DNA of 32,000 bases, from positions 58,133 to 90,132 of the forward strand of contig NZ_CYZX01000008.1 in the NCBI RefSeq assembly GCF_001405015.1, in the 5' to 3' direction. The notes under the pieces were generated by a model that ran no database searches, was not told the DNA's origin, and worked only from the letters and a program-made list of their open reading frames with translations. A program made the position numbers and the translations under genes. Shown one piece after another: positions 5,766 to 30,380 of the stretch; position 1 is the first letter of the stretch, and each line of letters opens with the position of its first letter. This stretch comes from Clostridium disporicum. Its GTDB lineage: Bacteria; Bacillota; Clostridia; Clostridiales; Clostridiaceae.

Positions 5766-5868
5766 CTTATATAAGGTGCTAGGGGTGCCAATTGGCTGAG
5801 AGATGATTTTATCATTAACCCTTCTTTACCTGATCTGGGTAATACCAGCGTAGGGAAGCTATATACGG
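5766..5868 (+). promoter_or_regulatory. TPP (THI-box) riboswitch
   Basis: Conserved cores ctAGGGGTGCc...GCTGAGA...ACCCTTcttTACCTGATCTGGgTAATACCAGCGTAGGGAAgc. Confidence 0.92.
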
Positions 5869-5893
5869 ATTTTTATTATTTTCGTTTAACTGG

Positions 5894-5926
5894 TACCTCT
5901 TGCGCAAAACAAGGAGGTATTTTTTT
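5894..5926 (+). terminator. riboswitch expression platform: terminator hairpin that also sequesters the thiT SD
   Basis: tacctcttg-cgcaaaa-caaggaggta, followed by T7. The 3' arm contains the AAGGAGG SD of thiT. Confidence 0.75.
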
Positions 5927-6580
5927 ATGACAAATTTTCTAGCAACCTTATCAGAAAATTTTAAAACACTATTTAGTAGTCCATTAACACTACTAACATT
6001 ACTTGCATGCGGTATTTTACTAATTGCATTTATCAAATTTAAATCTATAAAATTTAATGCTCAACTTATGGCTAGAATTGGACTAGCTTTAGCATTAGCT
6101 ATCATATTAGATATGATAAAGCTTTACACATTCCCTAATGGTGGTGGAAGCGTATCTCTTGGTAGCATGATTCCTATATTTATAATCTCATATGTTTATG
6201 GACCATCTGTTGGGATATTTACAGGATTCCTTTTTGGCTTATTAAAGCTAATGATTAATCCGTATATATTAAGTCCTATTCAAGTACTATTTGATTATCC
6301 TCTTCCATTTATGGCTGTAGGGATAGCTGGCTTCTTTAGGGATAAAAAACTAATTGGAGCTACTGTAGGAATGTTTTTAAGATTTATATGCCACTTTATT
6401 TCTGGAGTTGTTTTCTTTGGTGAATATGCACCTGCTGGTATGTCTCCTGCAATATATTCATTAGCAGTAAATGGTCCAGCTGTAGGTGTAGAACTTTTAA
6501 TTTGTTTAGTAATATTAGGATTACTACCTTTAAATCAAATATTAAAAACACTTAATCCAAGTTCAAATATTAATATATAA
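5927..6580 (+). CDS. thiT: thiamine ECF-transporter S component ThiT
   Basis: Polytopic membrane protein directly behind the TPP riboswitch. The ORF-track start 5900 is a TTG inside the terminator stem. ATG 5927 follows AAGGAGG. Confidence 0.85.
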   Translation: MTNFLATLSENFKTLFSSPLTLLTLLACGILLIAFIKFKSIKFNAQLMARIGLALALAIILDMIKLYTFPNGGGSVSLGSMIPIFIISYVYGPSVGIFTGFLFGLLKLMINPYILSPIQVLFDYPLPFMAVGIAGFFRDKKLIGATVGMFLRFICHFISGVVFFGEYAPAGMSPAIYSLAVNGPAVGVELLICLVILGLLPLNQILKTLNPSSNINI

Positions 6581-14091: not shown

Positions 14092-14868
14092 TTAATTGAA
14101 TCTTACATAAAATGAACCTTTATAATCATTTAGATAAACTTCTACCTTTTGTCCTGGTTCTACAAACATTCCTTCAGTAAATTCTTCAGCTGAAATTTTA
14201 TCTGTTTCTGATTTTAAATTTCCATCTTTATCGTATACCTTCACCACTATATCGCCTTTTTCTCTTTCTCCCTTACACCAAAAGCTATGCTGATTAGATG
14301 TAATTGTATATTCTAAAACGTCTGTTGTTCTTTCATTAAATACCCTACCTTGATATCCGCTTGTATCAAAAGTGTTAATCTCTTCGGTGTAGCTTCCAGT
14401 AATTCCAGAGAAACTAACGTAGCTTACTACGAACATACCCACAAATAAAATTGCTAATACTACTATTATAGAAACTACTATTATAATAGGTTTATTATTT
14501 ATTTTTCTTTTACTATTAGTTATTTCATCAGGTAGTTCTGTTGTACAATTAGGACAGAATCTCCACCCCGGTTGAACATTTTGTCCACAGTTAGGACAAA
14601 AGTTTCCACACCTTTCCCCACAGTATGGGCATAACTTTAAGTCTTTTGGTACTTCTTTTCCACAGTTATTGCATCTTCTTCTATCGCTTCTACTAACTAT
14701 TGCATAAACTATAATTCCAACTGGAAATGCTATAAATGCAGCTATAGTCCATAGCCACCAATACTCTTCTCCTCTTTTTCTTGAATCAAGAGCAACCCAA
14801 ATAGCTTGCCATATAAATAATCCAAAAATTATAGCCATAAAAATCATTGGCATAAACATAATTAACAT
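14092..14868 (-). CDS. membrane protein with PLD-N-like TM hairpin, double zinc ribbon and extracytoplasmic C-terminal domain
   Basis: CNNCG...CPYCG...CPNCG...CPNC zinc ribbons between TM segments. SD AAGGGGGA upstream. Last gene of the ECF sigma operon. Confidence 0.75.
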   Translation of the reverse strand: MLIMFMPMIFMAIIFGLFIWQAIWVALDSRKRGEEYWWLWTIAAFIAFPVGIIVYAIVSRSDRRRCNNCGKEVPKDLKLCPYCGERCGNFCPNCGQNVQPGWRFCPNCTTELPDEITNSKRKINNKPIIIVVSIIVVLAILFVGMFVVSYVSFSGITGSYTEEINTFDTSGYQGRVFNERTTDVLEYTITSNQHSFWCKGEREKGDIVVKVYDKDGNLKSETDKISAEEFTEGMFVEPGQKVEVYLNDYKGSFYVRFN

Positions 14869-14886
14869 AAAATTTCTCCCCCTTTT

Positions 14887-15207
14887 CTAATAAGACTTCT
14901 TTCTTTTTATTATAGGTATAATAAGTAACATCATCATTGATACAGAAACAAAATAATATCCTATAATTAATTTAGGTATATTCATAATCCTTTTATCAAT
15001 AACTGCTATCCTAGGCATAATTATAGCTAAGCATGTTATTAGTGATACAAATACAACTATTAATATAGAAATAAAAATCGCTCTTTTTACTCTCTTTCTT
15101 TCACGCTTTTTATCAAACTGTTTATCTACTATAGAAAATATGTCTAACTCTTTTATATATCCTAACTTATCTAAGCTTTCATCATTTAACATATTACTAT
15201 CATCCAT
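14887..15207 (-). CDS. small two-TM membrane protein, putative cognate anti-sigma factor
   Basis: Starts 5 nt after the sigma-factor stop, with SD GAGGTG. Cytoplasmic N-terminus followed by two hydrophobic helices. No ZAS motif. Confidence 0.55.
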   Translation of the reverse strand: MDDSNMLNDESLDKLGYIKELDIFSIVDKQFDKKRERKRVKRAIFISILIVVFVSLITCLAIIMPRIAVIDKRIMNIPKLIIGYYFVSVSMMMLLIIPIIKRKKSY

Positions 15208-15212
15208 TTATA

Positions 15213-15743
15213 TCACACCTCACTTCCTACTAATTTCTTTTTTAACCTTGATGCAGTATAGAACACTCTAGATTTTACAGTTCCCTCAGAACATTTAAAT
15301 ACCTTAGAGATTTCTTCATAAGAATATCCATAATAATGTTTCAATATAAATGATATTCGTTTTTCATAAGGCATTTTTTTCAACTCTTTAAGCATCTCTT
15401 CCACTTGTAGCCTATCTAATATAGTGTCGGTTTCATTATTTTCAATGTGGCTTAACTCTATTTCACAACTATAATCTATTTTTTTATTTTTTCTTATAAT
15501 ATCTCTATAATAATTAATAGATATTGATATTAACCATGATTGAAATTTCGATTTCCCTTTGAACTTATTTATATTAACAACAGCTTTTAAGCAAACTTCT
15601 TGAACTATATCTTGAGTTAGATCTTCATTAGCAGTCATTTTCAGGGTAAATCCATATAGAGCTTTATAATTATTCTGAAGCAATATGTTCATGGCATGTT
15701 TATTGCCATCTTGAGCTTTTTTGATTAGCTCTATCTCCTCCAC
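15213..15743 (-). CDS. ECF-type RNA polymerase sigma-70 family factor
   Basis: Region 2 (DLTQDIVQEVCLKA...FKGKSKFQSWLISISINYYRD) and region 4 (YGYSYEEISKVFKCSEGTVKSRVFYTASRLKK). GTG start 8 nt after AAGGGGG. Confidence 0.9.
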   Translation of the reverse strand: MEEIELIKKAQDGNKHAMNILLQNNYKALYGFTLKMTANEDLTQDIVQEVCLKAVVNINKFKGKSKFQSWLISISINYYRDIIRKNKKIDYSCEIELSHIENNETDTILDRLQVEEMLKELKKMPYEKRISFILKHYYGYSYEEISKVFKCSEGTVKSRVFYTASRLKKKLVGSEV

Positions 15744-15777
15744 TCTTAATACCCCCTTAAATTAACTTTCATTATTA

Positions 15778-15803
15778 AGACGTAATATCTTCAAAATAGT
15801 TCA
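15778..15803 (-). promoter_or_regulatory. ECF-type (autoregulatory) promoter candidate
   Basis: Minus strand: TGAAC-16 nt-CGTCT, about 35 nt upstream of the sigma-factor start. Matches the generic ECF GAAC/CGTC architecture. Confidence 0.55.
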
Positions 15804-15940
15804 TTTTAATTTCAAAAAATTTTGTTAATATTTTCTTTCCTTTTTTGACACTTAATTGACACAAAGAAAGGGTAATATAATACTTGTAAAGTAGTTAAAG
15901 CATTATTATTTACCCCTAAAAAACCACCTTAAATGAAACT

Positions 15941-15980
15941 CAAAATCTCTGATTTTATTAGTTGAAGTTACATTTCAGTA
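15941..15980 (+). repeat. truncated copy of the dispersed hairpin repeat family (copy C)
   Basis: aaatctctgattt and ttgaagttaca match the reverse complement of the copy downstream of metG (17641-17873). The middle part is missing. Confidence 0.7.
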
Positions 15981-16006: not shown

Positions 16007-16048
16007 AACTAGAGCCGACGTCCCCCAACTTAGGCTCTAGTTTTTTTT
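16007..16048. terminator. strong hairpin terminator overlapping the stop of the MetRS-like gene; U tract much better on the plus strand
   Basis: aactagagcc-16 nt-ggctctagtt (10 bp), followed by T8 on the plus strand. On the minus strand it is followed only by accattcttta. Confidence 0.7.
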
Positions 16049-17498
16049 AATTTCTTTTCTCTTTTAATCTTAAAACTTCATCAATAGCTCTTCTTTTATC
16101 AATTCTCTTTAGTTCTAAATCAACCTCTTTTAATATTCCATCTCTTTTTTCTATAAAACTCCATATAGGTTCATTAATACTTAAGGAAGTTCTTATATTT
16201 TCACAAATATTAGGCATAAATGGTTCCAATAAATTAGCTATATTAGCTACTATTTGAATATTATTATAGACCTTATTCTTGCAGTAATCAGGATTCTTCT
16301 CTGCCATGTCCCATAATAAATTTTCTTTAAAATCTTTATTAGCCTTTCTGCAAAAAGCCATTATATTATTTAACGCACTATTAAAATGCCCCTCTTCAAT
16401 ATCGTCTCCAACGCTAAAATATAAATCTAAAATTTCATTTTTTAAACTTTCCTCTATAATTCCACTTGGTATTCTCGGCCCATAATTTTTTCTTGAGAAA
16501 GTTATGACCCTTTGTACATAGTGCGAAAAAGTACTTACCAAATCAAAATTATTTACATTTATATAATCCCTCCATGAAAAATCAGTATCCTTATCTTCTG
16601 GAGAGTTTAGCATAAGATAATATCTAAAACTATCTACGTTATAATTCTTTGTAATATAATCAGCCCATAATGCCCAATTCTTAACTGATGAGAATGGTTT
16701 TCCTTCTAGTTTTAAATGCTCACTTGATATCATTCTTAAATTAGGATTTTTAATTCCTACTCCACATAAAATAGCTGGGAAAATAACAGTATGGAAAGGT
16801 ATATTATCTTTTCCGTGAACAAAATAAACCCTTGAATCATCTCCGCTCCAATATTCTTTCCAATCCTCTCCTCTTTCACTTAGACATTTCATACTGGCAG
16901 TAAGATATCCCATTACCGCTTCAATCCATACATATATTTTTTTATCTTCATATCCGTCTAACGGTACATCAACGCCCCAATTAAAATCTCTTGTTACAGC
17001 TCTATCCCTTAATCCTTCATCAAGATATCTTTTTAATATTTTTTTGGCATTTTCTCTCCATCCATCTTCATTATCAAATATGTACTTTACATCATCCTCA
17101 AACTTAGATAAAGCAAAGAATAAATGTTTTGACCCATCTACTATTTCTTCATATATATATCCTTTTTCATATAAATCTAAAATAAATTTTTTTACCTTTT
17201 CTTGGTGATATTCAGAATGAGTTTTTTCAAAAATATCAAAAGAAAATCCTAAAGATTTAAAACATTTTTGAAATTCCTTATGATATTTTTCTACAGCTTC
17301 TAACGGAGATATCCCCTCTTCTTCTGCTCTATTAGTAACAGGAGTACCATGACAGTCAGTTCCTGATATAAATACAACATTATCTCCCATCATTCTATGA
17401 TACCTAGCTAAAATGTCCCCAGGTAACCATACAGCAATTCTTCCTAAATGAAGTGGTCCATTAGCATAAGGCCATGCATTTCCTATAATTATATTCAT
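16047..17498 (-). CDS. MetRS-like class I aminoacyl-tRNA synthetase paralog (truncated, degenerate catalytic motifs)
   Basis: WPYANGPLHLGR..., GTDCHGTP, WGVDVP, VWIEAVMGY, HGKDNIPFHTVIFPA and LLW in the anticodon-domain position all align to E. coli-type MetRS. It lacks the Cys-knuckle insertion and the C-terminal tRNA-binding domain. SD AAGGGGG lies 7 nt upstream of the ATG. Confidence 0.85.
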   Translation of the reverse strand: MNIIIGNAWPYANGPLHLGRIAVWLPGDILARYHRMMGDNVVFISGTDCHGTPVTNRAEEEGISPLEAVEKYHKEFQKCFKSLGFSFDIFEKTHSEYHQEKVKKFILDLYEKGYIYEEIVDGSKHLFFALSKFEDDVKYIFDNEDGWRENAKKILKRYLDEGLRDRAVTRDFNWGVDVPLDGYEDKKIYVWIEAVMGYLTASMKCLSERGEDWKEYWSGDDSRVYFVHGKDNIPFHTVIFPAILCGVGIKNPNLRMISSEHLKLEGKPFSSVKNWALWADYITKNYNVDSFRYYLMLNSPEDKDTDFSWRDYINVNNFDLVSTFSHYVQRVITFSRKNYGPRIPSGIIEESLKNEILDLYFSVGDDIEEGHFNSALNNIMAFCRKANKDFKENLLWDMAEKNPDYCKNKVYNNIQIVANIANLLEPFMPNICENIRTSLSINEPIWSFIEKRDGILKEVDLELKRIDKRRAIDEVLRLKEKRN

Positions 17499-17589
17499 TA
17501 AATAACCCCCTTTTATTGCTACAAAGATGAAAAGTTCACCTACAGTGAAAGTGAAAATATTGCTTTAGCAAAACTTTTCACTATAAAAT

Positions 17590-17609
17590 AAGGAGCCTAA
17601 TGGCTCCTT
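17590..17609 (-). terminator. probable terminator of the metG transcript (after the repeat-rich 3' UTR)
   Basis: aaggagcc-taat-ggctcctt, with short U tracts on both strands. Confidence 0.5.
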
Positions 17610-17640: not shown

Positions 17641-17700
17641 TCAATACACTTATAGTGTAACTTCAAGATACCCAATCACAGACTTGAGCTTTTAGTCAAA
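17641..17700 (-). repeat. dispersed repeat family, copy A core module
   Basis: tacacttatagtgtaacttcaag ... cttttagtcaa recurs inverted at 31046-31140. Confidence 0.75.
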
Positions 17701-17869
17701 TTCGACTAACTAAATCAGAGATTTAAAGTCTAGAGGAAACACCTACTCACATACGTTCGTCTGTGTAAGTTCGACTAACTAAATCAGAGATTTAGAGTCT
17801 TAGAGGAAACACCGACTCACATCCGTTCGTAGGTGTAAGTTCGACTAGCTAAATCAGAGATTTAGAGTC
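17701..17869 (-). repeat. tandem repeat, 69-70 bp unit, about 2.4 copies, each with an 11-bp-stem hairpin
   Basis: Units start at 17701, 17770 and 17840. Conserved ttcgactaactaaatcagagatttagagtc contains the hairpin GACT-aa-CTAAATC-aga-GATTTAG-AGTC. The array starts 4 nt after the metG stop codon. Confidence 0.92.
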
Positions 17870-17873
17870 TCAC

Positions 17874-19826
17874 TTATCTTACTTGGCTTCCTGTTGGTAG
17901 TTCACCTGGACTTACTAGGTTTAATACACTATCATCGTCTGTAGCTGCAGCAAGTATCATACCTTGAGATAATTCTCCTCTTAATGTTACTGGCTTTAAG
18001 TTAGCTACTAAAACAACATATTTTCCTACTAATTCTTCTGGTTTATAGAATTTAGCTATTCCTGATACTACCTGTCTTTCTTCACCATTTAAATCTACTT
18101 TTAATTTTAATAATTTTTTTGCTCCCTTGATTGGTTCACAAGCAGTTACTTTAACTACTCTTAAGTCAAGCTTAGCAAAATCATCTATTGTGATTTCCTC
18201 TTTAATTGGAGTTATCTCTCTCTTTTCTTCAACTTTTTGTTGTGCTGCTAATTGTTCTGCTTTTTTCTTTTCAACTACCTCTAATATTGCTTTTACATCT
18301 AGTCTTGGGAAAATTGCTTCACCTCTATTAACCTTTGTTCCAGCAGCTGTTCCATCAAATGAATGTAAGCTTTCTAAATCTGTTTTTGAAATATTAACTT
18401 GTTCATTGATTTTTGCACTTGTTTCTGGTAAGAATGGTGCAATTAAGCTTGATATAAATCTTATACTTTCACATAAGTTATAAAGCACTGTAGCAAGTCT
18501 ATCCTTTTGAGATTCATCTTTTCCAAGAACCCAAGGAGTAGTTTCATCTATATATTTATTTGTTCTTCTAATTAAGTTCCATATTTGATCTAAAGCATCT
18601 GCAATTCTTAAATGCTCCATCTTATCTGCAACTTTTTTAGGAGTTTCAAGCGCTAATGAGATAAGCTCATCATCCACAGCTTCTTTAACCATTGGTACTG
18701 GAATTACTCCATCAAAATACTTTTCAACCATTGTAACTGTTCTAGAAACAAGGTTTCCTAAAGTATTAGCTAAATCTGAGTTAACTCTTTCAGTAACTAA
18801 TTCCCAAGTGATTGTTCCGTCATTATCGAATGGCATTTCATGAAGAACGAAGTAACGAACTGCATCAACACCAAATAATTCTACTAAATCATCAGCGTAT
18901 ATAACATTACCTTTAGACTTACTCATTTTTCCGTCACCTTGTAATAACCATGGATGACCGAAAATTTGCTTTGGTAATGGAATATCAAGAGCCATTAACA
19001 TAATTGGCCAGTAAATAGTATGGAATCTTAAAATATCCTTACCTATTAAGTGTAAATCTGCTGGCCAGAATTTTGTATACGCTTCTGCATGATTTCCATC
19101 TAAATCATATCCTAAACCAGTTATATAGTTTGAAAGAGCATCAAGCCATACATATACAACGTGTTTATCATCAAAATCAACTGGAATACCCCACTTAAAT
19201 GATGTCCTTGATACACATAAATCTTGTAATCCTGGTAATAAGAAGTTGTTCATCATTTCATTTTTGCGTGATTCTGGTTGAATAAACTCTGGATGAGTGT
19301 TTATATGCTCAATTAATCTATCTGTATATTTGCTAAGCTTTAAGAAATATGCTTCTTCTTGAGCTGGTTGAACTTCTCTTCCACAGTCAGGACACTTACC
19401 ATCAACTAATTGTGATGAAGTAAAGAAAGATTCACATGGTGTACAATATAATCCTTCATAGTGACCTTTATATATATCCCCTTGTTCGTAAAGCTTCTTG
19501 AATATTTTTTGAACTTGTTTTTCATGATACTCATCAGTTGTTCTGATAAATTTATCATAAGAAGTATTCATTAAATCCCAAATTCCTTTAATTTCACCTG
19601 CTATATTATCAACAAATTCCTTTGGTGTAATACCAGCTTCTTGAGCTTTTAACTCAATTTTTTGACCATGTTCGTCTGTTCCTGTTTGGAATTGAACATC
19701 ATAGCCTTGTAATCTCTTATATCTTGCTATACTATCAGCTAAAACTACCTCATAAGTATTACCTATATGTGGCTTACCTGAAGTATATGCAATTGCAGTA
19801 GTTATATAATATGGTTTTTTAGTCAT
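17874..19826 (-). CDS. metG: methionine--tRNA ligase (canonical, with C-terminal tRNA-binding domain)
   Basis: KPHIGN (HIGH), CTPC...CPDCG knuckle, KMSKS present, and a C-terminal Trbp111/EMAP-like domain (DFAKLDLRVVKV...). Preceded by a Met T-box. Confidence 0.97.
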   Translation of the reverse strand: MTKKPYYITTAIAYTSGKPHIGNTYEVVLADSIARYKRLQGYDVQFQTGTDEHGQKIELKAQEAGITPKEFVDNIAGEIKGIWDLMNTSYDKFIRTTDEYHEKQVQKIFKKLYEQGDIYKGHYEGLYCTPCESFFTSSQLVDGKCPDCGREVQPAQEEAYFLKLSKYTDRLIEHINTHPEFIQPESRKNEMMNNFLLPGLQDLCVSRTSFKWGIPVDFDDKHVVYVWLDALSNYITGLGYDLDGNHAEAYTKFWPADLHLIGKDILRFHTIYWPIMLMALDIPLPKQIFGHPWLLQGDGKMSKSKGNVIYADDLVELFGVDAVRYFVLHEMPFDNDGTITWELVTERVNSDLANTLGNLVSRTVTMVEKYFDGVIPVPMVKEAVDDELISLALETPKKVADKMEHLRIADALDQIWNLIRRTNKYIDETTPWVLGKDESQKDRLATVLYNLCESIRFISSLIAPFLPETSAKINEQVNISKTDLESLHSFDGTAAGTKVNRGEAIFPRLDVKAILEVVEKKKAEQLAAQQKVEEKREITPIKEEITIDDFAKLDLRVVKVTACEPIKGAKKLLKLKVDLNGEERQVVSGIAKFYKPEELVGKYVVLVANLKPVTLRGELSQGMILAAATDDDSVLNLVSPGELPTGSQVR

Positions 19827-19923: not shown

Positions 19924-20195
19924 ATAAAAAAATCCTCTATATAGGTTAATTACCCATATAGAGGCGTTATATACGCGTTACCACTCTATTTTTACATTTA
20001 TCTCACAATAAATATCTCACTAGGTTACTATCATCACCGTGCAATATAACGGTTGCTACCGTATTATCCTAATCATAAGACTCAGATAATCTGCTCCAAG
20101 ACCATCTTCATAAAGTTCAATGACGCTAGCTTTCACCAAATCCTAGCTCTCTTTAGACATATTCCTAAACTACTCTTCTTTTCTATGCATTTATT
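19924..20195 (-). promoter_or_regulatory. T-box leader, methionine specifier (AUG)
   Basis: Minus strand has AGAGAG...GGTGAAAG stem I elements, specifier loop gaactttATGaag (ATG at 20109-20111), T-box sequence AGAGTGGTAACGCG (19974-19987), and terminator cctctatatggg/cctatatagagg followed by T7. Confidence 0.9.
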
Positions 20196-20289: not shown

Positions 20290-22035
20290 TTATTTTGCTA
20301 AAGCGCCTGTTTCAGCTTCTATGTTAGCTTCATCTACCTTCTTACCAAATATTTGTACCCCAACATATACAGCAACTAGTGCTAATGGTAATACTAGATA
20401 TATAGGTAATCCTAAACCTGCTGGAATATAACCAAATAATATTGTTATTGTTGCAACAAATAATGAATACCATATTTGTGTATTAACGTGATTTATGTGG
20501 TTACATCCTGCACCCATTGATGAAAGTATTGTTGTATCTGAAATTGGTGAACAATGATCTCCAAATATTGCTCCTGTTAATACTGCACTTGTAGAAACTA
20601 CTATAAATGACATTTCAGGATTAATTGAATGTGCAAGAGGTATTGCTAATGGCATTAATATACTCATTGTTCCATATGCAGTTCCAGTTGAGAATGATAT
20701 TACTGCTCCTAGAACGAATATTAAACTTGGTAATAAAAATGCTGGTATAGCACCTTGTAAAGCTTCAACTAAATAATATGCAGTTCCAAGTTCTTTAATT
20801 ACTGAACCTAAAGACCAAGCTAATATAAGAATAACTCCTGTAATAATTAGCCCTTTCATTCCATCTACCCAAGTTTCTATAGCTTCACTTAAAGTAAATA
20901 TCTTTTTACTAACAGCCATAATTATAGTTACAACTGATGCAAATAATGCTGATTGGAATAATGCTACTGAAGCATCTGCTGCTGAGAAAGCTTCCATTAT
21001 TCCTGCAAATGACATTGGTGAGTTAGTCATTATTTGTTGAAGTGCTACGTTATCTCCACCCATTATTGAGCTATATCCACTATAGTAGAATGCTACTAGC
21101 GCTGAAATAATTAGTGTCCCTATTGGAATAATTGCATTCCATATGCTAAGCTCTACACCTTCTTTTGGTTCTAATTCATCCATTTGTGAAGATGATGCTG
21201 CTATCTCTTCAACAATATCTTTATTTCTCTTTCTTGCAGCTATTTCAGCTTTTCTCATTGGTCCAAATTCTTTTAAAGTAACTGCTGTAATAATTATAAA
21301 TGCAAGAATTAATATGTTGTAAAATCTATATGGTATAGTTTGAAGGAATACTCCAAATCCACTTGCTTCTACACCTATTTGATTAAACCCTTCACCTATT
21401 AAGCTAACTTCTAATCCAATCCAAGTTGATATTATTGCAAGCCCAGCTACTGGCGCTGCAGTTGCATCAATTATAAACGCTAATCTCTCTCTTGAAATCT
21501 TCATCTTATCAGCTACTGGACGCATTATAGGTCCAACTATAAGTGAATTTGCGTAATCATCAAAGAATACGAATAATCCTAATAACCAAGTTATTAATTG
21601 AGTGCTTCTTGCAGTCTTTGCTTTTTTTGCTAAAGCTTCTGCTATAGCCTTAGCTCCACCCATTTTACCTACTAAATTAATAACTCCTCCAATTGCCAAT
21701 ACCTGAAGTATTATACCTGCATTCCATGGATCTGCTAAAGAATTTAATGCTCTTGTAACAAAATCTAAGAATGCTTGTATAAGTGCATAAAACACATTAT
21801 ATCCTGTAAGGCTAATTAAAAAGCTACCTGATAAAATCCCTATAAATAAAGAAATAACAACGTTCTTAGTAATAAATGCTAATACTATCGCTACTATTGG
21901 TGGTATTAAAGTTAATAACCCAAATCTTTCTGCATTTACTGCTGCTGGTTCTAACTCACTGGCAAATGCCATTGTTGTTGATAAAGTAAAAATAATCATT
22001 GTTAGTAGGATTACTCTAAATCCCGTCTTTTTCAT
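20290..22035 (-). CDS. NhaC-family Na+/H+ antiporter-like permease (probable lysine transporter)
   Basis: 581-aa polytopic membrane protein with NhaC-like repeats. Directly controlled by a lysine riboswitch. Confidence 0.85.
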   Translation of the reverse strand: MKKTGFRVILLTMIIFTLSTTMAFASELEPAAVNAERFGLLTLIPPIVAIVLAFITKNVVISLFIGILSGSFLISLTGYNVFYALIQAFLDFVTRALNSLADPWNAGIILQVLAIGGVINLVGKMGGAKAIAEALAKKAKTARSTQLITWLLGLFVFFDDYANSLIVGPIMRPVADKMKISRERLAFIIDATAAPVAGLAIISTWIGLEVSLIGEGFNQIGVEASGFGVFLQTIPYRFYNILILAFIIITAVTLKEFGPMRKAEIAARKRNKDIVEEIAASSSQMDELEPKEGVELSIWNAIIPIGTLIISALVAFYYSGYSSIMGGDNVALQQIMTNSPMSFAGIMEAFSAADASVALFQSALFASVVTIIMAVSKKIFTLSEAIETWVDGMKGLIITGVILILAWSLGSVIKELGTAYYLVEALQGAIPAFLLPSLIFVLGAVISFSTGTAYGTMSILMPLAIPLAHSINPEMSFIVVSTSAVLTGAIFGDHCSPISDTTILSSMGAGCNHINHVNTQIWYSLFVATITILFGYIPAGLGLPIYLVLPLALVAVYVGVQIFGKKVDEANIEAETGALAK

Positions 22036-22096: not shown

Positions 22097-22335
22097 ATAA
22101 AAAGAGCCTTGAGTTAACACTCAAGGCCCTAAAATTGCATTAAAAAATTAGGTCTTCCTCAAATGATAGCTCACCACAAAAACAAGTTTGTGACAGTGAT
22201 ATATATATTATATACATCCCCAGCTATACAACCTTAAAGCATTAGTTGTATGCTTCGGCGATAATTCCTTTCCTATTAACTCACAGTGCTTACCTCATCA
22301 ATAGTACTCTTAAGTATCGCGCCTCTACCTTTATT
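22097..22335 (-). promoter_or_regulatory. lysine riboswitch (L-box) with terminator
   Basis: Minus strand has gtAGAGGCGCgatacttaAGAGTA...GGAAAGGaattaTCGCCGAAGc...tAAGGttgtatagCTGGGG...ACTGTCAc, then terminator gccttgagt/actcaaggc followed by a T run. Confidence 0.9.
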
Positions 22336-26856: not shown

Positions 26857-29800
26857 TTATTTAACTACTTCTACTGTCATATTTAATTTTTCACCATTAA
26901 TAACAGTTTCAGTATAATCATAATCTCCATTAAATACTATTTCTTGAGTTAAAGTTTCTTTCTTTATAGTATCAGCAAACTTTTTGATAACGCCTTCTAG
27001 CATTTCATTTCCTGCTACATATAAATTAATCTTATCTGCAACTTCAAATCCTTTATCTTTTCTCATATTTTGAATCTTAGAAATCATTTCTCTTACGTGA
27101 CCTTCTTCTCTAAGTTCTTCTGAAATATGAGTATCAAGAACAACACCTATTGAACCTTCACCAGCAAATGCATATCCTTCTAAACCTTGCATTGTAACTA
27201 ATAAGTTTTCCTTATTAAGTTCAATTTCAGTTCCATCAACATTTATAGTTACTGTTTCCCCATTTTGGATAGCTTGAGCTAATTCCATTTGGTTTCTAGC
27301 AGCTATTTCTTTTCTGATTCCAGGTATCATCTTACCATAAGCTCTTCCTAATACAGGTAGGTTTGGCTTGATTTCAAAGTTAACATATTTAGAAAGGTCA
27401 GCACCAAATTCTACTTCTTTGATATTTAACTCATCAGTTATGATATCTCCGTAGTATTCTGGAAGTGAATCTGTTGAAATAAGCATCTTAGAAAGTGGCT
27501 GTCTATTCTTAATGTTAGCACCATTTCTTGCACTTCTTCCAAGCTTAACGATTGTGTAAGCTAAATCCATTTCCTTTTCTAAATCTTTATTTATAGCACT
27601 TTCATCAACTTGTGGCCATGAACATAAGTGAATGCTTTCTGGAGCATTATTGTCTAATCCAGTTACTAAGTTTTGATAAATTTCTTCTGTTATAAATGGT
27701 ACGAATGGAGCTGCAACCTTTATTAAAGTAGTTAATACTCTGTATAAAGTTACATAAGCACCAATCTTATCATCAGTTAATTCTTGAGACCAGTATCTTC
27801 CTCTATTTCTTCTTACATACCAGTTTGATAACTCATCTGTGAAATCTTCAATAGCTAAAGCAGCTTGAGTTATTTGGTATGAATCTAACATAGAGTCAAC
27901 GTCCTTAACTAATGTGTTAAGCTTAGACATAATCCATTTATCCATAACATTTTCTGATACGAAATCAGCATAGTTAAGCGGATTGAATTGGTCTAATTCA
28001 GCATATAGAACGTAGAATGAGTAAACATTCCATAATGTTCCCATGAACTTTCTTCCTGCTTCACCAACATCATCAACTGAGAATCTTGTTGGTAACCATG
28101 GAGCACTTGCAGTGTAGAAATGCCATCTTGTAGCATCAGCACCTTGAGAATCTAATACTGTGAATGGATCTACAACATTACCCTTAGATTTTGACATCTT
28201 TAAGCCCTTCTTATCTAGAACGTGACCTAAGACTATACAGTTTTCAAATGGATTTCTATCAAATATAGCAGTTGAAATTGCTAATAATGTGTAGAACCAT
28301 CCTCTTGTTTGGTCAACAGCTTCTGATATAAATTGAGCTGGGAAGTTTTCCTCGAATAATTCCTTATTTTCAAATGGGTAGTGTAATTGTGCAAATGGCA
28401 TTGAACCTGAGTCAAACCAACAGTCAATAACTTCGTTAGTTCTTGTCATTTCTTTTCCACACTTTTCACACTTTAAGTGAACATTGTCTATATAAGGTTT
28501 GTGTAATTCGATATCTTCTGGAACATTTATTCCCTTTTCTCTTAATTCTTCGATGCTTCCGATACATTCTTTATGTCCGCATTCACATCCCCAAATTGGA
28601 AGTGGAGTTCCCCAATATCTATCTCTTGAAATACCCCAGTCGATAACATTTTCTAAGAACTTACCAAATCTACCTGTTCTTATGTTATCTGGGTACCAGT
28701 TAATCTTATTATTGTTTTCTAAAAGCTTATCTCTTAGAGTTGTCATTGCAACAAACCAGCTTTCCTTTGGATAGTAAAGAAGTGGTGTGTCACATCTCCA
28801 ACAATGTGGATATGAGTGAAGGTGTCTTTCTGATTTAAATAACTTGTTGTTTTCTTCAAGCCATTTACAGATGCTTTCATCACATTTCTTAACGAATTTT
28901 CCTGCCCATGGAGTAACTTCTTCTACGAATCTACCTTCTCTGTCAACTAAGTTAATGAAAGTGATTCCATTAGCTTTAGCTACTAAGCTGTCATCTTCAC
29001 CGTAAGCTGGAGCTATATGAACTATACCAGTACCATCTGATAAAGTAACGTAATCACCGTGAATTACTTCAAATGCTTTACCTTCAACTTTACCGAAAGG
29101 CATTAATTGTTCATACTTAGTTCCTAAAAGTTCAGTTCCAGGGAATTCTCTAACTATTTCATAATCTTCGCCTAAAACTTTCGCTGCTAAATCTTTAGCT
29201 AATATTAATGTTTCTTCTCCAACTTTTGCTTCTACATAAGTGTATGCTTTGTTTATACATAAAGCTAAGTTTGAAGGTAATGTCCAAGGAGTTGTTGTCC
29301 AAGCTAAGATATACTTATTCTCTTCTCCTTCAACTTTAAATTTAGCTATACAAGTTAAGTCCTTAACGTCTTTATATCCTTGAGCAACTTCGTGAGATGA
29401 TAATGCAGTTCCACATCTTGGGCAGTATGGCATTACTTTGTGTCCTTCATATAAAAGACCTTTATCCCACATTTGTTTTAATGCCCACCAAACTGATTCG
29501 ATGTATGGGTTATGATAAGTTACATATGGATTTTCCATATCAACCCAATAACCGATTTGGTTAGTCATCTTTTCCCACATACTTACGTAAGTAAATACGC
29601 TTTCTTTACATTCTTTAACGAATTTTTCAACTCCGTACTCTTCTATTTGTTCTTTACCTGAAATTCCAAGCTTCTTTTCGATTTCAAGTTCAACTGGAAG
29701 TCCGTGAGTATCCCAACCAGCTTTTCTTATAACCTTATATCCCTTCATAACCTTGTATCTTGGGATTATATCCTTCATAACTCTTGTTAAAACGTGTCCT

Positions 29801-29967
29801 ACGTGAGGTCTACCGTTTGCTGTTGGAGGTCCATCATAGAAAGTGAAATATTCACCATCTTGGTTCATATCAAAATTCTTTTTTATGACATTTCTTGCAG
29901 TCCAAAGATTTGCAACTTCTTTTTCTAAGCCAACAAAACCATTTGGAAGTTCTACTTTTTTGTACAT
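26857..29967 (-). CDS. ileS: isoleucine--tRNA ligase (type 2, about 1036 aa)
   Basis: [12 protein letters not shown] (HIGH), KMSKSKGN, editing-domain WTTTPWTLP, and Cys clusters. Preceded by an Ile T-box. Confidence 0.97.
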
Positions 29968-30118: not shown

Positions 30119-30380
30119 AAAAAAACTCCATCCAAAAGGACGAAGTGTTATTCGCTATACCACCTATGGTTATTAAGCTCACATTATATATAAAACGAGC
30201 CATATCTTCAGATACTATCATATCCTATCCTTTAACGCAGGATTACGGGATAGCTTAATTGTCAAACTTTCAGCCTCCAACTCATAGGTGATTTTCTTAA
30301 AGCATTTCTATGATTTCACACCAACCAATCACTCTCTTAAAGAAAAAACTTAAATACTTTTCCTAATCATAGTTTTTAAC
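30119..30380 (-). promoter_or_regulatory. T-box leader, isoleucine specifier (AUC)
   Basis: Minus strand has AAGAGAGTG...GGTGTGAAA, specifier loop aagaaaATCacc (ATC at 30290-30292), T-box GGTGGTATAGCG (30153-30164), and a terminator hairpin followed by a T run. Confidence 0.9.

What the first reader, a model, noticed from the sequence alone, without database searches (positions are those of the whole stretch)
16047..17498. MetRS paralog lacking the zinc-knuckle insertion, with degenerate HIGH and KMSKS motifs, next to canonical metG
The 483-aa product aligns along its length with E. coli-type MetRS (WPYANG, GTDCHGTP, WGVDVP, VWIEAVMGY, HGKDNIPFHTVIFPA, anticodon-domain LLW), but it differs in five ways. 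(1) The HIGH signature reads HLGR (aa 17-20). (2) Where the canonical enzyme in this window has YCTPC...CPDCG, the paralog goes directly from YIYEEIVDG to SKHLFFAL with no Cys pair. (3) The KMSKS position reads GKPFSSVKN (aa 266-274), so the second catalytic lysine is absent. (4) There is no C-terminal tRNA-binding domain. (5) It has a good SD but no T-box, while metG 376 bp upstream has one. Loss of both class I signature motifs suggests a pseudo-synthetase or a repurposed Met- or tRNA-binding protein rather than a spare MetRS. Its function is unknown and the enzymatic inference is untested.
Basis: partly seen in the sequence, partly recalled or inferred. Interest (0 to 1): 0.72.

Follow-up and report, generated by a model that had tools for sequence, protein, structure and literature searches.

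The report
Clostridium tandem MetRS paralogue with HxGR
A real, selectively maintained second methionyl-tRNA-synthetase-like gene sits directly behind the housekeeping metG throughout Clostridium sensu stricto; it keeps the methionine/ATP pocket but has an altered signature motif and keeps losing its tRNA-recognition parts, so it is probably not a simple spare enzyme.

Summary
The sequence observations are correct. ORF 16047-17498 (-) encodes a 483-aa MetRS-fold protein with HLGR, GKPFSSVKN, no Cys knuckle and no C-terminal tRNA-binding domain, 375 nt downstream of a T-box (AUG specifier) metG.

It is not a one-off. It belongs to a lineage found across Clostridium sensu stricto (262 species-level hits), always immediately downstream of the canonical 650-aa MetRS1 gene. 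H-x-G-R is invariant in 81/81 members and in 0/36 of the nearest outside homologues.

Most members are 542 aa with two zinc knuckles. Knuckles were reduced or lost independently at least five times, and the window protein is one such derivative. The anticodon triad N391/R395/W461 is intact in only 30/81 members, against about 35/36 outside. The Met and adenosine pocket residues are invariant, and dN/dS is 0.085-0.12.

The adjacent metG itself has HIGN. KxSTS loops and missing C-domains occur in active MetRSs. The ECF sigma cluster is an unrelated variable insert.

Best reading (about 0.4): a retooled, still Met/ATP-binding and probably adenylating paralogue that is not a stand-alone housekeeping tRNA-Met synthetase. 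An auxiliary type-2 MetRS (0.3) and a dead pseudo-synthetase (0.17) remain open. The lineage appears undescribed in the literature searched.

The parts
16047..17498 (-). CDS of the 483-aa MetRS-like paralogue. It is identical to WP_055265119.1 / UniProt A0A174EJB2, which sources name 'methionine--tRNA ligase' or 'class I tRNA ligase family protein'.
   Evidence: dN/dS 0.085-0.12
17439..17450 (-). Codons for H17-L18-G19-R20, the HIGH-equivalent. Arg replaces E. coli H24.
   Evidence: R is present in 81/81 lineage members and 0/36 nearest outside homologues. It is the only strong lineage-specific invariant position.
17130..17141 (-). Junction (V120-D121-G122-S123) where the roughly 59-aa two-zinc-knuckle insert of the 542-aa relatives is missing.
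   Evidence: Alignments. The tree shows the deletion is specific to this sub-lineage.
16677..16703 (-). Codons for G266-K-P-F-S-S-V-K-N274, the KMSKS-loop equivalent. It is a derivative of the archaeal KKFSTSRN motif.
   Evidence: K267, F269 and S270 are invariant and K273 is K or R. The K332-equivalent is unconstrained and the S336-equivalent is lost.
16311..16523 (-). Anticodon-binding helices carrying the equivalents of E. coli N391, R395 and W461. In the window protein these are H326, R330 and W396.
17506..17512 (-). Shine-Dalgarno sequence AAGGGGG of the paralogue.
   Evidence: Read from the sequence. The same strong SD is seen in nearly all relatives.
17590..17609 (-). Terminator-like hairpin plus T-run between metG and the paralogue, 91 nt before the paralogue's ATG.
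   Evidence: An equivalent hairpin is present in 53/76 other species.
17874..19826 (-). Canonical housekeeping metG. It is type 1, 650 aa, has HIGN, KMSKS and one CxxC...CxxC knuckle, and carries a C-terminal tRNA_bind domain.
   Evidence: NCBIfam PRK12267 scores 939 bits (cutoff 598), with PF01588 present.
19957..20194 (-). T-box leader of metG with an AUG specifier.
   Evidence: RF00230, 117.6 bits (gathering score 93)

Best explanation
The gene encodes one member of an old, vertically inherited lineage of archaeal/E. coli-type ('type 2') MetRS paralogues specific to Clostridium sensu stricto. The lineage is fixed in the slot between the T-box-controlled housekeeping MetRS1 gene and tatD. 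It is probably expressed at a lower level by read-through of the metG terminator.

The protein keeps the full methionine pocket and the adenosine-binding core. I infer, but have not shown, that it still binds Met and ATP and forms Met-AMP. On this reading the invariant Arg of H-x-G-R and the two flanking lysines (K267, K273) take over the role of the lost KMSKS residues.

Its tRNA-specific modules are not under consistent constraint in the lineage. These modules are the zinc knuckles of the connective peptide and the CAU-anticodon triad. The window protein has lost both knuckles and one triad residue. The selected function is therefore most likely not stand-alone housekeeping charging of tRNA-Met. 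It is more likely a methionine-dependent adenylating or ligase-type activity whose acceptor is not recognised through the classical MetRS anticodon and knuckle contacts. That acceptor is unknown: it could be a small molecule or a protein, or tRNA with relaxed specificity.

Shown here: family membership by fold, lineage distribution, synteny, motif states and purifying selection. Inferred: catalysis, read-through expression and a non-housekeeping role.
For: Synteny: metG (66-88% identical to the window's) ends 26-772 nt (median 146) upstream of the paralogue in all 76 species with upstream flank, in the order nhaC-metG-paralogue-(variable)-tatD-yabE-rnmV-ksgA. No species has lost MetRS1.

Active site: A12, P14, Y15, N17, H21, G23, D52, G55, W253, A256, Y260, K295, F300 and H301 equivalents are conserved in 78-81 of 81 members.

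Selection: dN/dS is 0.085 and 0.12, against 0.04-0.06 for metG. The catalytic part gives 0.07-0.10 and the anticodon part 0.12-0.17. ORFs are intact in 80/80 loci.

Signature motifs: R at H24 in 81/81 against 0/36 outside. The K332 position reads N30/D10/P9/S9/K7 and others. S336 is retained in 1/81 against 32/36 outside. K267 is invariant and K273 is K75/R6.

tRNA modules: N391 is N in 44/81, R395 is R in 33/81 and K in 36/81, and W461 is W in 46/81 with 29 gaps. Outside the lineage the figures are 34, 35 and 36 of 36. The full NRW triad is kept in 21/55 two-knuckle, 7/9 one-knuckle and 0/14 knuckle-less members. There were at least five independent knuckle reductions.

Precedent: MetRS-like domains of hydrazine synthetases (HLGH, KFSTG) adenylate amino acids and transfer them to a non-tRNA acceptor, keep the helical bundle, and vary in knuckle number.

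Expression: a terminator hairpin is present in 53/76 gaps, the median distance from the T-run to the start codon is 43 nt, and a sigma-70-like promoter scoring at least 10/12 lies downstream in only 1/53.

Weak in-vivo hint: the MetRS1 inhibitor CRS3123 depleted only the genus Clostridium among the highly abundant gut genera in a phase 1 study (PMC7187627). That would be unexpected if these species carried a fully competent type-2 MetRS.
Against: There is no biochemical evidence of any kind.

30/81 members still have the complete anticodon triad and at least one knuckle, and the window protein keeps R330 and W396. The anticodon-binding domain is never deleted and is still under purifying selection. 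tRNA-Met binding or charging therefore cannot be excluded, especially for ancestral-type members.

Relative to metG, the paralogue's anticodon domain is not disproportionately fast. Divergence is about 2.1x in that domain against 2.9x in the catalytic domain.

No partner gene that could supply an alternative acceptor (cupin, N-hydroxylase, carrier protein) is conserved nearby.

The AF2 model is low-confidence exactly at the HIGH and KMSKS loops, so geometric compensation by R20 is conjecture.

The CRS3123 observation is genus-level 16S data of unknown species make-up.
Confidence: 0.4

Rival explanations
1. It is a bona fide auxiliary type-2 MetRS that still charges tRNA-Met. It would be kept as a second isozyme, for example one insensitive to inhibitors of type-1 MetRS or tuned to a stress or starvation state. 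The HxGR and GK-x-FS-x-x-K motifs would be tolerated variants, and knuckle loss a tolerated reduction.
For: The whole Met and adenosine pocket is conserved. The 1st and 3rd HIGH positions are intact, and the 4th is variable in active MetRSs: HIGN in the adjacent metG and HLGN in human. K-x-S-T-S loops and 'GKQFSKS' loops with the Lys shifted by -1 occur in full-length MetRSs. Altered HIGH motifs are compatible with full activity in IleRS2 (PMC10485003). 30/81 members keep N-R-W plus knuckles. The gene passes the TIGR00398 cutoff. Additional type-2 MetRS copies that protect Gram-positives from MetRS1 inhibitors are documented (PMC7187627). It is placed behind metG under the Met T-box.
Against: MetRS1 is never lost in 76/76 species, although a competent second enzyme would allow that. 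The anticodon triad, near-invariant outside the lineage, is broken in 51/81 members and in all 14 knuckle-less ones. The W461 loop is missing (alignment gap) in 29/81. There were repeated complete losses of the knuckle subdomain. The score is below the E. coli-type equivalog cutoff, 404 against 587. The distribution is genus-wide and syntenic rather than sporadic and mobile, unlike what I recall for the pneumococcal and anthrax MetRS2. The genus Clostridium was depleted by CRS3123 (weak).
Confidence: 0.3
2. It is a catalytically dead pseudo-synthetase. On this view it is a methionine- and/or tRNA-binding protein with a regulatory or chaperone role, such as sensing Met or buffering uncharged tRNA-Met that feeds the T-box.
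For: Both signature loops deviate. R replaces the 4th HIGH residue in 81/81. The first-Lys position of KMSKS is unconstrained and is even Asp in 10/81. The final Ser is lost. Its location next to the T-box-regulated metG fits a regulatory link.
Against: The residues that matter only for catalysis or adenylate binding remain invariant or conservatively substituted over divergence down to about 44% identity. These are H21, G23, K295, D296 (D73/E8), and the flanking K267 and K273. A tRNA-sequestering role is hard to reconcile with decay of the anticodon triad and loss of the knuckles. The catalytic domain is the slower-evolving part: dN/dS 0.07-0.10, and 70% against 45% mean pairwise identity.
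Confidence: 0.17
3. It is a decaying, functionless duplicate (a pseudogene in progress) that merely still has an open frame.
For: It evolves 2-3 times faster than metG. Modules have been lost piecemeal.
Against: Full-length ORFs are intact in all 80 species loci and in close relatives. dN/dS is 0.085-0.12. A strong conserved SD is present. The position is syntenic across a whole genus.
Confidence: 0.03

Closest known systems
Archaeal-type MetRS, e.g. Pyrococcus abyssi MetRS (PDB 1RQG), and the monomeric E. coli MetRS core (1QQT/1F4L)
   Same: The fold is the same: TMq 0.84-0.86 and E 1e-80 to 1rqg. The Met pocket residues match. The KMSKS region is of the same type, KKFSTSRNW against GKPFSSVKNW. 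The ancestral state has two zinc knuckles. The C-terminal helix is shared, and there is no Trbp-like domain, as in the E. coli 1-547 core.
   Different: HxGR replaces HxGH. The first Lys and last Ser of the KMSKS-equivalent are not conserved. The knuckles are deleted in the window protein. The anticodon triad is not conserved in the lineage. It is never the only MetRS in its genome.
Auxiliary type-2 MetRS (MetRS2) of Gram-positives that also have MetRS1. S. pneumoniae, B. anthracis and Faecalibacterium are mentioned in PMC7187627.
   Same: It is a second, type-2-like MetRS gene in a Firmicute whose housekeeping enzyme is type 1.
   Different: It is genus-wide, syntenic and tandem with metG, rather than strain-variable and horizontally spread (that description of MetRS2 is from my own knowledge). 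It has non-canonical HxGR and a decaying anticodon triad and knuckles. No resistance phenotype is known, and the genus-level CRS3123 data point the other way.
MetRS-like domain of bacterial hydrazine synthetases (PyrN, Spb40/Tri28). This is the cupin-associated MetRS paralogue of Aravind et al. 2010 (PMC2922099; PMC8664883; bioRxiv 10.1101/2025.08.22.671884).
   Same: Both are archaeal-type MetRS-derived paralogues coexisting with the housekeeping MetRS. Both have a KFST-type loop, a variable number of zinc knuckles and a retained helical bundle. Hydrazine synthetases show that such a scaffold can adenylate an amino acid and pass it to a non-tRNA acceptor.
   Different: No cupin or lysine N-hydroxylase gene lies in any of the neighbourhoods. 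The HIGH motif is HLGH in PyrN and HxGR here. PyrN needs the first Lys (K458), which is not conserved here. The Met-specific pocket (Y260, H301 equivalents) is retained here, whereas hydrazine synthetases use Gly, Glu, Ser, Ala, Tyr or Thr.
IleRS2 with the swapped signature motif G/AxHH (PMC10485003)
   Same: It is a class Ia synthetase lineage with a clade-wide non-canonical HIGH motif. This demonstrates that signature-motif change need not abolish activity.
   Different: There the 1st and 3rd positions swap and the enzyme is the proven housekeeping, antibiotic-hyper-resistant IleRS. Here only the 4th position changes (H to R), and neither activity nor any inhibitor link is known.
ArgRSs that lack the KMSKS lysine and use a lysine next to the HIGH loop instead (Sekine et al. 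2001, J Biol Chem; recalled from memory, not checked here)
   Same: A positive charge is gained at the HIGH loop together with loss of KMSKS lysines. This is the compensation I propose for R20.
   Different: It is a different synthetase with different positions. For this lineage the compensation is conjecture.

Membership tests
Methionyl-tRNA synthetase (class Ia; Pfam PF09334 / TIGR00398) | Sequence and fold of the MetRS catalytic core plus the helical anticodon-binding domain | tested here: met
   PF09334 scores 345 bits. TIGR00398 scores 376.7 against a cutoff of 336.35. Foldseek TMq is 0.84-0.86 to E. coli and P. abyssi MetRS.
Methionyl-tRNA synthetase (class Ia; Pfam PF09334 / TIGR00398) | Full-length equivalog score for a housekeeping MetRS (NCBIfam PRK00133 or PRK12267) | tested here: not met
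   PRK00133 scores 404 against 587, and PRK12267 scores 240 against 598. The neighbouring metG scores 939 on PRK12267.
Methionyl-tRNA synthetase (class Ia; Pfam PF09334 / TIGR00398) | HIGH signature (H-x-G-H, with N or Q tolerated at position 4) | tested here: not met
   The motif is HLGR. R is present in 81/81 of the lineage and 0/36 nearest outside homologues, which read H31/Q3/N2. Positions 1 and 3 are intact.
Methionyl-tRNA synthetase (class Ia; Pfam PF09334 / TIGR00398) | KMSKS loop (K-[MFIL]-S-[KT]-S) | tested here: inconclusive
   The window reads K-P-F-S-S-V-K. The first Lys position is P here and unconstrained in the lineage. The final Ser is lost (1/81 against 32/36 outside). A Lys at -1 is invariant, as in 'GKQFSKS' full-length MetRSs. 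T/S at the second-Lys position is normal for this subfamily.
Methionyl-tRNA synthetase (class Ia; Pfam PF09334 / TIGR00398) | Methionine pocket (E. coli Y15, D52, W253, A256, Y260, H301) | tested here: met
   All are identical in the window protein and in 81/81 lineage members. E. coli numbering was verified against PDB 1f4l.
Methionyl-tRNA synthetase (class Ia; Pfam PF09334 / TIGR00398) | Zinc-knuckle insertion(s) in the connective peptide | tested here: not met
   The window protein has 0 Cys and 0 CxxC in the region. The lineage ancestor had two knuckles (55/81 members still do).
Methionyl-tRNA synthetase (class Ia; Pfam PF09334 / TIGR00398) | CAU-anticodon recognition triad (E. coli N391, R395, W461) | tested here: inconclusive
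   The window protein has H326, R330 and W396, so 2 of 3. In the lineage the full triad is kept in only 30/81. Outside homologues have 34, 35 and 36 of 36.
Methionyl-tRNA synthetase (class Ia; Pfam PF09334 / TIGR00398) | Met activation and tRNA-Met aminoacylation activity | not testable with these tools
   This needs ATP-PPi exchange, charging assays and complementation.
Auxiliary inhibitor-insensitive MetRS2 of Gram-positives | Type-2 sequence present in addition to a type-1 MetRS | tested here: met
   The best NCBIfam and PDB matches are E. coli and archaeal type. MetRS1 is adjacent in 76/76 species.
Auxiliary inhibitor-insensitive MetRS2 of Gram-positives | Confers insensitivity to MetRS1 inhibitors, that is, can sustain translation alone | not testable with these tools
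   Only an indirect hint exists, and it points against: the genus Clostridium was depleted by CRS3123 in human stool 16S data (PMC7187627).
Hydrazine synthetase MetRS-like domain (cupin/MetRS-like/N-hydroxylase system) | Fusion to, or neighbourhood with, a zinc cupin and a Lys/Orn N-hydroxylase | tested here: not met
   Neighbours are nhaC, metG, tatD, yabE, rnmV and ksgA, plus variable inserts. No cupin or monooxygenase is present.
Hydrazine synthetase MetRS-like domain (cupin/MetRS-like/N-hydroxylase system) | HLGH plus KFSTG with an essential first Lys | tested here: not met
   The motifs are HLGR and (K)PFSSV. The first-Lys position is K in only 7/81.

The most novel reading that the evidence does not exclude
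The lineage is a new functional class of MetRS-derived enzyme. One possibility is a Met-adenylating ligase that transfers methionine to a non-tRNA acceptor. The other is a deliberately low-specificity 'mis-methionylating' synthetase whose relaxed anticodon recognition lets it put Met on non-Met tRNAs. In either case it would be switched on together with metG through the Met T-box in anaerobic Clostridium. The invariant HxGR Arg would be the catalytic adaptation that replaces the KMSKS lysines.
Probability: 0.15. Interest if true: 0.8.

Novelty: new variant of a known kind. Interest (0 to 1): 0.55.

Why it matters
(1) Annotation. Proteins of this lineage, from many Clostridium species, are named 'methionine--tRNA ligase' in some sources and 'class I tRNA ligase family protein' in others. 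Neither name rests on evidence, and the lineage has a simple diagnostic: H-x-G-R, in tandem behind metG.

(2) Drug spectrum. Type-1 MetRS inhibitors (CRS3123) are in clinical trials for C. difficile, and extra type-2 MetRS copies are the known route to insensitivity (PMC7187627). Whether gut Clostridium sensu stricto carry a functional type-2 enzyme, which could be a reservoir of resistance, is directly testable with this gene.

(3) Enzymology. Nature has repeatedly produced knuckle-free and anticodon-triad-free MetRS cores under purifying selection. These are a ready-made series for asking what those modules and the 4th HIGH residue are needed for.

(4) If the protein proves tRNA-independent, it would add a second functional class of MetRS-derived ligase beside the hydrazine synthetases.

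Tried and rejected
- Co-occurrence with the ECF sigma cluster. The sigY-like/membrane/zinc-ribbon genes are present only in the window lineage (L081-L084) and L005, with remnants in L004 and L009. In most species tatD follows the paralogue directly. The sigma gene also has its own TGAAC-N16-CGTC motif. Rejected as a functional link.

- A regulatory RNA in the metG-paralogue gap. Rfam at gathering and at E<=1 gave only two sub-threshold sRNA hits over the terminator. There are no tRNA genes in the window.

- L13-to-W (the 'AWPY' sequence) as a lineage-specific narrowing of the Met pocket. I first took it for one. The outside control showed W in 29/36 homologues, including full-length MetRSs. 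Rejected.

- A zinc-sparing backup enzyme. Rejected as the lineage's function, because 55/81 members keep eight knuckle cysteines.

- Hydrazine-synthetase membership. No cupin or N-hydroxylase neighbours are present.

- AF2 model. The fold is confirmed, but pLDDT is below 50 exactly at residues 9-23, 46-54 and 269-273, so no active-site geometry could be read.

- Specificity-determining-position scan. Apart from R20, only weak positions emerged (N7, I192 and a few surface sites), so it gave no hint of a new substrate sub-site.

- Domain-wise rate comparison. The anticodon domain is not disproportionately accelerated relative to metG. The case for relaxed tRNA recognition therefore rests on the specific determinants, not on bulk rates.

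- Literature. Eight searches (MetRS2 with Clostridium; MetRS paralogue with Clostridium; MetRS-like; MetRS2 with B. anthracis; duplicated aaRS in Clostridia; CRS3123; REP3123 with paraputrificum; IleRS hyper-resistance motif) found no description of this lineage. Brown et al. 2003 (EMBO Rep) could not be retrieved.

- The flanking 70-nt repeats. They were not found in any of the 88 loci then held, so they are not part of the lineage's architecture.
Full report
**1. The observation**

The ORF at 16047-17498 (-) is real and encodes 483 aa. It lies 375 nt downstream of a canonical 650-aa metG at 17874-19826 (-). That metG scores 939 bits on the type-1 MetRS equivalog PRK12267 and has a C-terminal tRNA_bind domain.

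The 483-aa product is clearly of MetRS fold:
- PF09334 scores 345 bits, and TIGR00398 scores 376.7, above its cutoff.
- The score on the E. coli-type equivalog is below cutoff: PRK00133, 404 against 587.
- The best solved relative is P. abyssi MetRS, E 1e-80.
- The AF2 model (pLDDT 76, pTM 0.80) superposes on E. coli and P. abyssi MetRS at TMq 0.84-0.86.

- HLGR at residues 17-20.
- No Cys-containing insert between YIYEEIVDG and SKHLFF.
- GKPFSSVKN at residues 266-274.
- No C-terminal tRNA-binding domain.
- A strong SD, with a T-box only upstream of metG. That T-box has an AUG specifier.

**2. It is a lineage, not an oddity**

The exact protein is WP_055265119.1 / A0A174EJB2. It comes from human-gut isolates labelled C. 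disporicum or Clostridium sp. Sources name it either 'methionine--tRNA ligase' or 'class I tRNA ligase family protein'.

Protein and genome searches show a family restricted to Clostridium sensu stricto. It includes disporicum, celatum, saudiense, tertium, paraputrificum, the butyricum/neonatale group, intestinale, gasigenes, baratii, sardiniense, perfringens-like lineages and Sarcina. There are 262 hits among GTDB species representatives.

In every one of the 76 species loci with upstream sequence, the canonical metG sits directly upstream on the same strand. The wider order is nhaC-metG-paralogue-(variable insert)-tatD-yabE-rnmV-ksgA. The ECF-sigma cluster that follows the gene in the window is one such variable insert. 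It is found only in the window's own lineage and one other species, so the proposed link to it is rejected.

**3. What defines the lineage**

I aligned 81 members to E. coli MetRS. The E. coli sequence and numbering were verified against PDB 1f4l. The results were as follows:
- The Met and adenosine pocket is essentially invariant: A12, P14, Y15, N17, H21, G23, D52, G55, W253, A256, Y260, K295, F300 and H301.
- The 4th HIGH residue is Arg in 81/81.
- The KMSKS-equivalent is G-K-x-F-S-[T/S/A]-x-[K/R]-N-W.
- In that loop the first-Lys position is unconstrained: N30, D10, P9, S9, K7 and others.
- The final Ser is kept in only 1/81.

As a control I took the 36 nearest homologues outside the lineage, from an exhaustive HMMER scan:
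- None has Arg at H24; they read H31, Q3, N2.
- W at L13 ('AWPY') is common (29/36), so it is not diagnostic.
- T at the second-Lys position is common (12/36, including full-length enzymes).
- A Lys shifted to -1 ('GKQFSKS') exists in full-length MetRSs.

A formal scan for positions invariant inside the lineage and different outside it returns R20 as the only strong one.

The HIGH change affects only the least critical position. That position is already N in the neighbouring housekeeping metG (HIGN). The missing second lysine is a subfamily norm, as in P. abyssi KFSTS and PyrN KFSTG, which adenylates. The unusual features are the Arg itself and the relaxed first-Lys and last-Ser positions.

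**4. The knuckle deletion and the tRNA modules**

Most members are 542 aa and carry two CxxC...CxxC knuckles. The window protein nests inside such a 542-aa group, so its deletion is recent and lineage-specific.

Independent reductions to one or no knuckle occurred in at least five other branches. Examples are L002, L011, L036, L049, the 453-467-aa baratii/sardiniense/chrysemydis group, and the 514-aa perfringens-like group.

The anticodon triad is near-universal outside the lineage: N391 34/36, R395 35/36, W461 36/36. Inside it is N 44/81, R 33/81 (K 36) and W 46/81, with the W461 position missing (alignment gap) in 29.

The full triad survives in 21/55 two-knuckle, 7/9 one-knuckle and 0/14 knuckle-less proteins. 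The window protein has H-R-W.

The two modules that serve tRNA in MetRS are therefore evolutionarily dispensable in this lineage, while the amino-acid/ATP site is not.

**5. Selection and expression**

Against relatives at 91% and 80% identity, dN/dS is 0.085 and 0.12. For metG the values are 0.04-0.06. The catalytic part gives 0.07-0.10 and the anticodon part 0.12-0.17. All 80 species ORFs are intact. The gene is functional.

It evolves 2-3 times faster than metG in both domains. Mean pairwise identity is 0.70 (catalytic) and 0.45 (anticodon), against 0.90 and 0.74 for metG.

Between metG and the paralogue, 53/76 species have a hairpin plus T-run. The median distance from the T-run to the start codon is only 43 nt, and only 1/53 has a good sigma-70-like promoter downstream. 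The window has the same hairpin at 17609-17590.

The simplest inference is attenuated read-through from the T-box-controlled metG transcript. This is inferred, not shown.

**6. Mechanism**

The conservation pattern fits a protein that still binds Met and ATP and probably makes Met-AMP. I propose that R20, K267 and K273 supply the charges that the KMSKS lysines supply elsewhere. This is by analogy with ArgRSs that use a HIGH-loop lysine, which I recall from memory.

Such a protein is not selected for classical anticodon- and knuckle-dependent charging of tRNA-Met. Hydrazine synthetases prove that an archaeal-type MetRS scaffold with a KFST loop can adenylate an amino acid and hand it to a non-tRNA acceptor, while keeping the helical bundle and varying its knuckles. 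The present lineage is not one of them. It has no cupin or N-hydroxylase neighbours, its Met pocket is intact, and it has HxGR.

I give this 'retooled adenylating, non-housekeeping' model about 0.4.

The main rival is a genuine auxiliary type-2 MetRS (0.3).
- In favour: the intact pocket, the 30/81 members with full triad and knuckles, and the precedent that altered HIGH motifs can be fully active (IleRS2).
- Against: MetRS1 is never lost, and the triad and knuckles decay.
- Also against, weakly: the MetRS1 inhibitor CRS3123 depleted the genus Clostridium in volunteers.

A catalytically dead regulator (0.17) fits poorly with the invariance of catalytic residues. A decaying pseudogene (0.03) is excluded by dN/dS.

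**7. Novelty**

Eight literature searches and the papers read on MetRS paralogues, MetRS types and aaRS duplication found no description of this lineage. Databases carry it only under generic names.

It is a new variant of a known kind: an aaRS paralogue. It has a clean diagnostic (HxGR, tandem behind metG) and an unusual evolutionary behaviour. Its function remains untested.

Noticed in passing
window 17662-17870 and 15930-15972: Three tandem copies of a roughly 70-nt element (67-100% identical) fill the metG-paralogue gap. A 43-nt inverted partial copy (81-86% complementary) lies just downstream of the paralogue, so the gene is bracketed by inverted repeats. The core AAATCAGAGATTT occurs only at these four places in the 32-kb window. 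It was absent from all 88 loci held at the time, including relatives at 91% and 80% protein identity. Its nature (REP/MITE-like, or a regulatory site) is unknown.
   Followed up: partly
window 17874-19826 (metG) versus L001, L005, L014-L018, L038, L051: The window's housekeeping metG is 87-88% identical to those of two MAG species (L038, L051) but only about 69% identical to the disporicum/cuniculi group. Yet the paralogue and all flanking genes (nhaC, tatD, rnmV, ksgA) are closest to that group. Among close relatives metG dS (0.29-0.35) is also about half that of its neighbours (0.57-1.0). This suggests allelic replacement of metG by recombination, or strong codon constraint.
   Followed up: partly
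window 14092-15803: A variable insert lies between the paralogue and tatD. It holds a SigY-like ECF sigma factor (15213-15743; NF007216 193.2 bits, cutoff 194), a 106-aa membrane protein and a 258-aa membrane protein with double zinc ribbons. Upstream is TGAAC-N16-CGTC (15803-15779), which resembles the autoregulated SigY promoter as I recall it from B. subtilis. The insert is present only in the window lineage and L005, with remnants in L004 and L009.
   Followed up: partly
L006, L012, L018, L029, L033, L054 and others, about 20-60 nt upstream of the paralogue start; window about 17515-17570: Between the metG terminator and the paralogue's SD, many species have a G-poor tract built from 3-4 short direct repeats. 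Examples are TTCACTTTTTCACTCATTCACTT, AACTTGTTACTTGCCACTTACAACTTGTCACT and AACTGTTAACTGTACACTGTTAACTGCTAACT. The repeat unit differs between lineages but the repetitive, G-poor character recurs. It could be a translational enhancer or a protein-binding site. This remains unexplained.
   Followed up: no
L085 349-7992 (and L086): The closest homologue outside the lineage is P0229 (547 aa, 41% identical), with canonical HLGH, KISKS and N-R-W. It heads a biosynthetic-looking cluster of a PLP-dependent decarboxylase, a 559-aa aminotransferase, a radical SAM enzyme and a GNAT, with a second MetRS-like gene on the opposite strand. It could be a self-resistance or biosynthetic MetRS.
   Followed up: partly
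L087 1693-3102: P0231 is another knuckle-less MetRS-like protein (469 aa), with HIGQ and a fully degenerate KMSKS region (IEMADAGEK). It sits directly after rimM-trmD in a translation-related operon. It appears to be an independent candidate pseudo-synthetase.
   Followed up: no
L089 5069-10237: P0230 (468 aa) lacks the knuckles but keeps HVGH, KISKS and the N-R-W triad. It lies next to a NUDIX gene, a radical SAM/SPASM enzyme, a 32-aa ORF (RiPP-like) and a serine recombinase. Knuckle-less MetRS cores with otherwise canonical motifs therefore exist as accessory genes.
   Followed up: no
window 22159-22335, 5771-5873, 30133-30379: These are ordinary riboswitch or leader contexts. A lysine riboswitch precedes the NhaC-type Na+/H+ antiporter (20290-22035). 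A TPP riboswitch precedes a YuaJ thiamine transporter (5900-6580). A second T-box precedes a 1036-aa IleRS with the DUF5915 C-terminus (26857-29967).
   Followed up: partly
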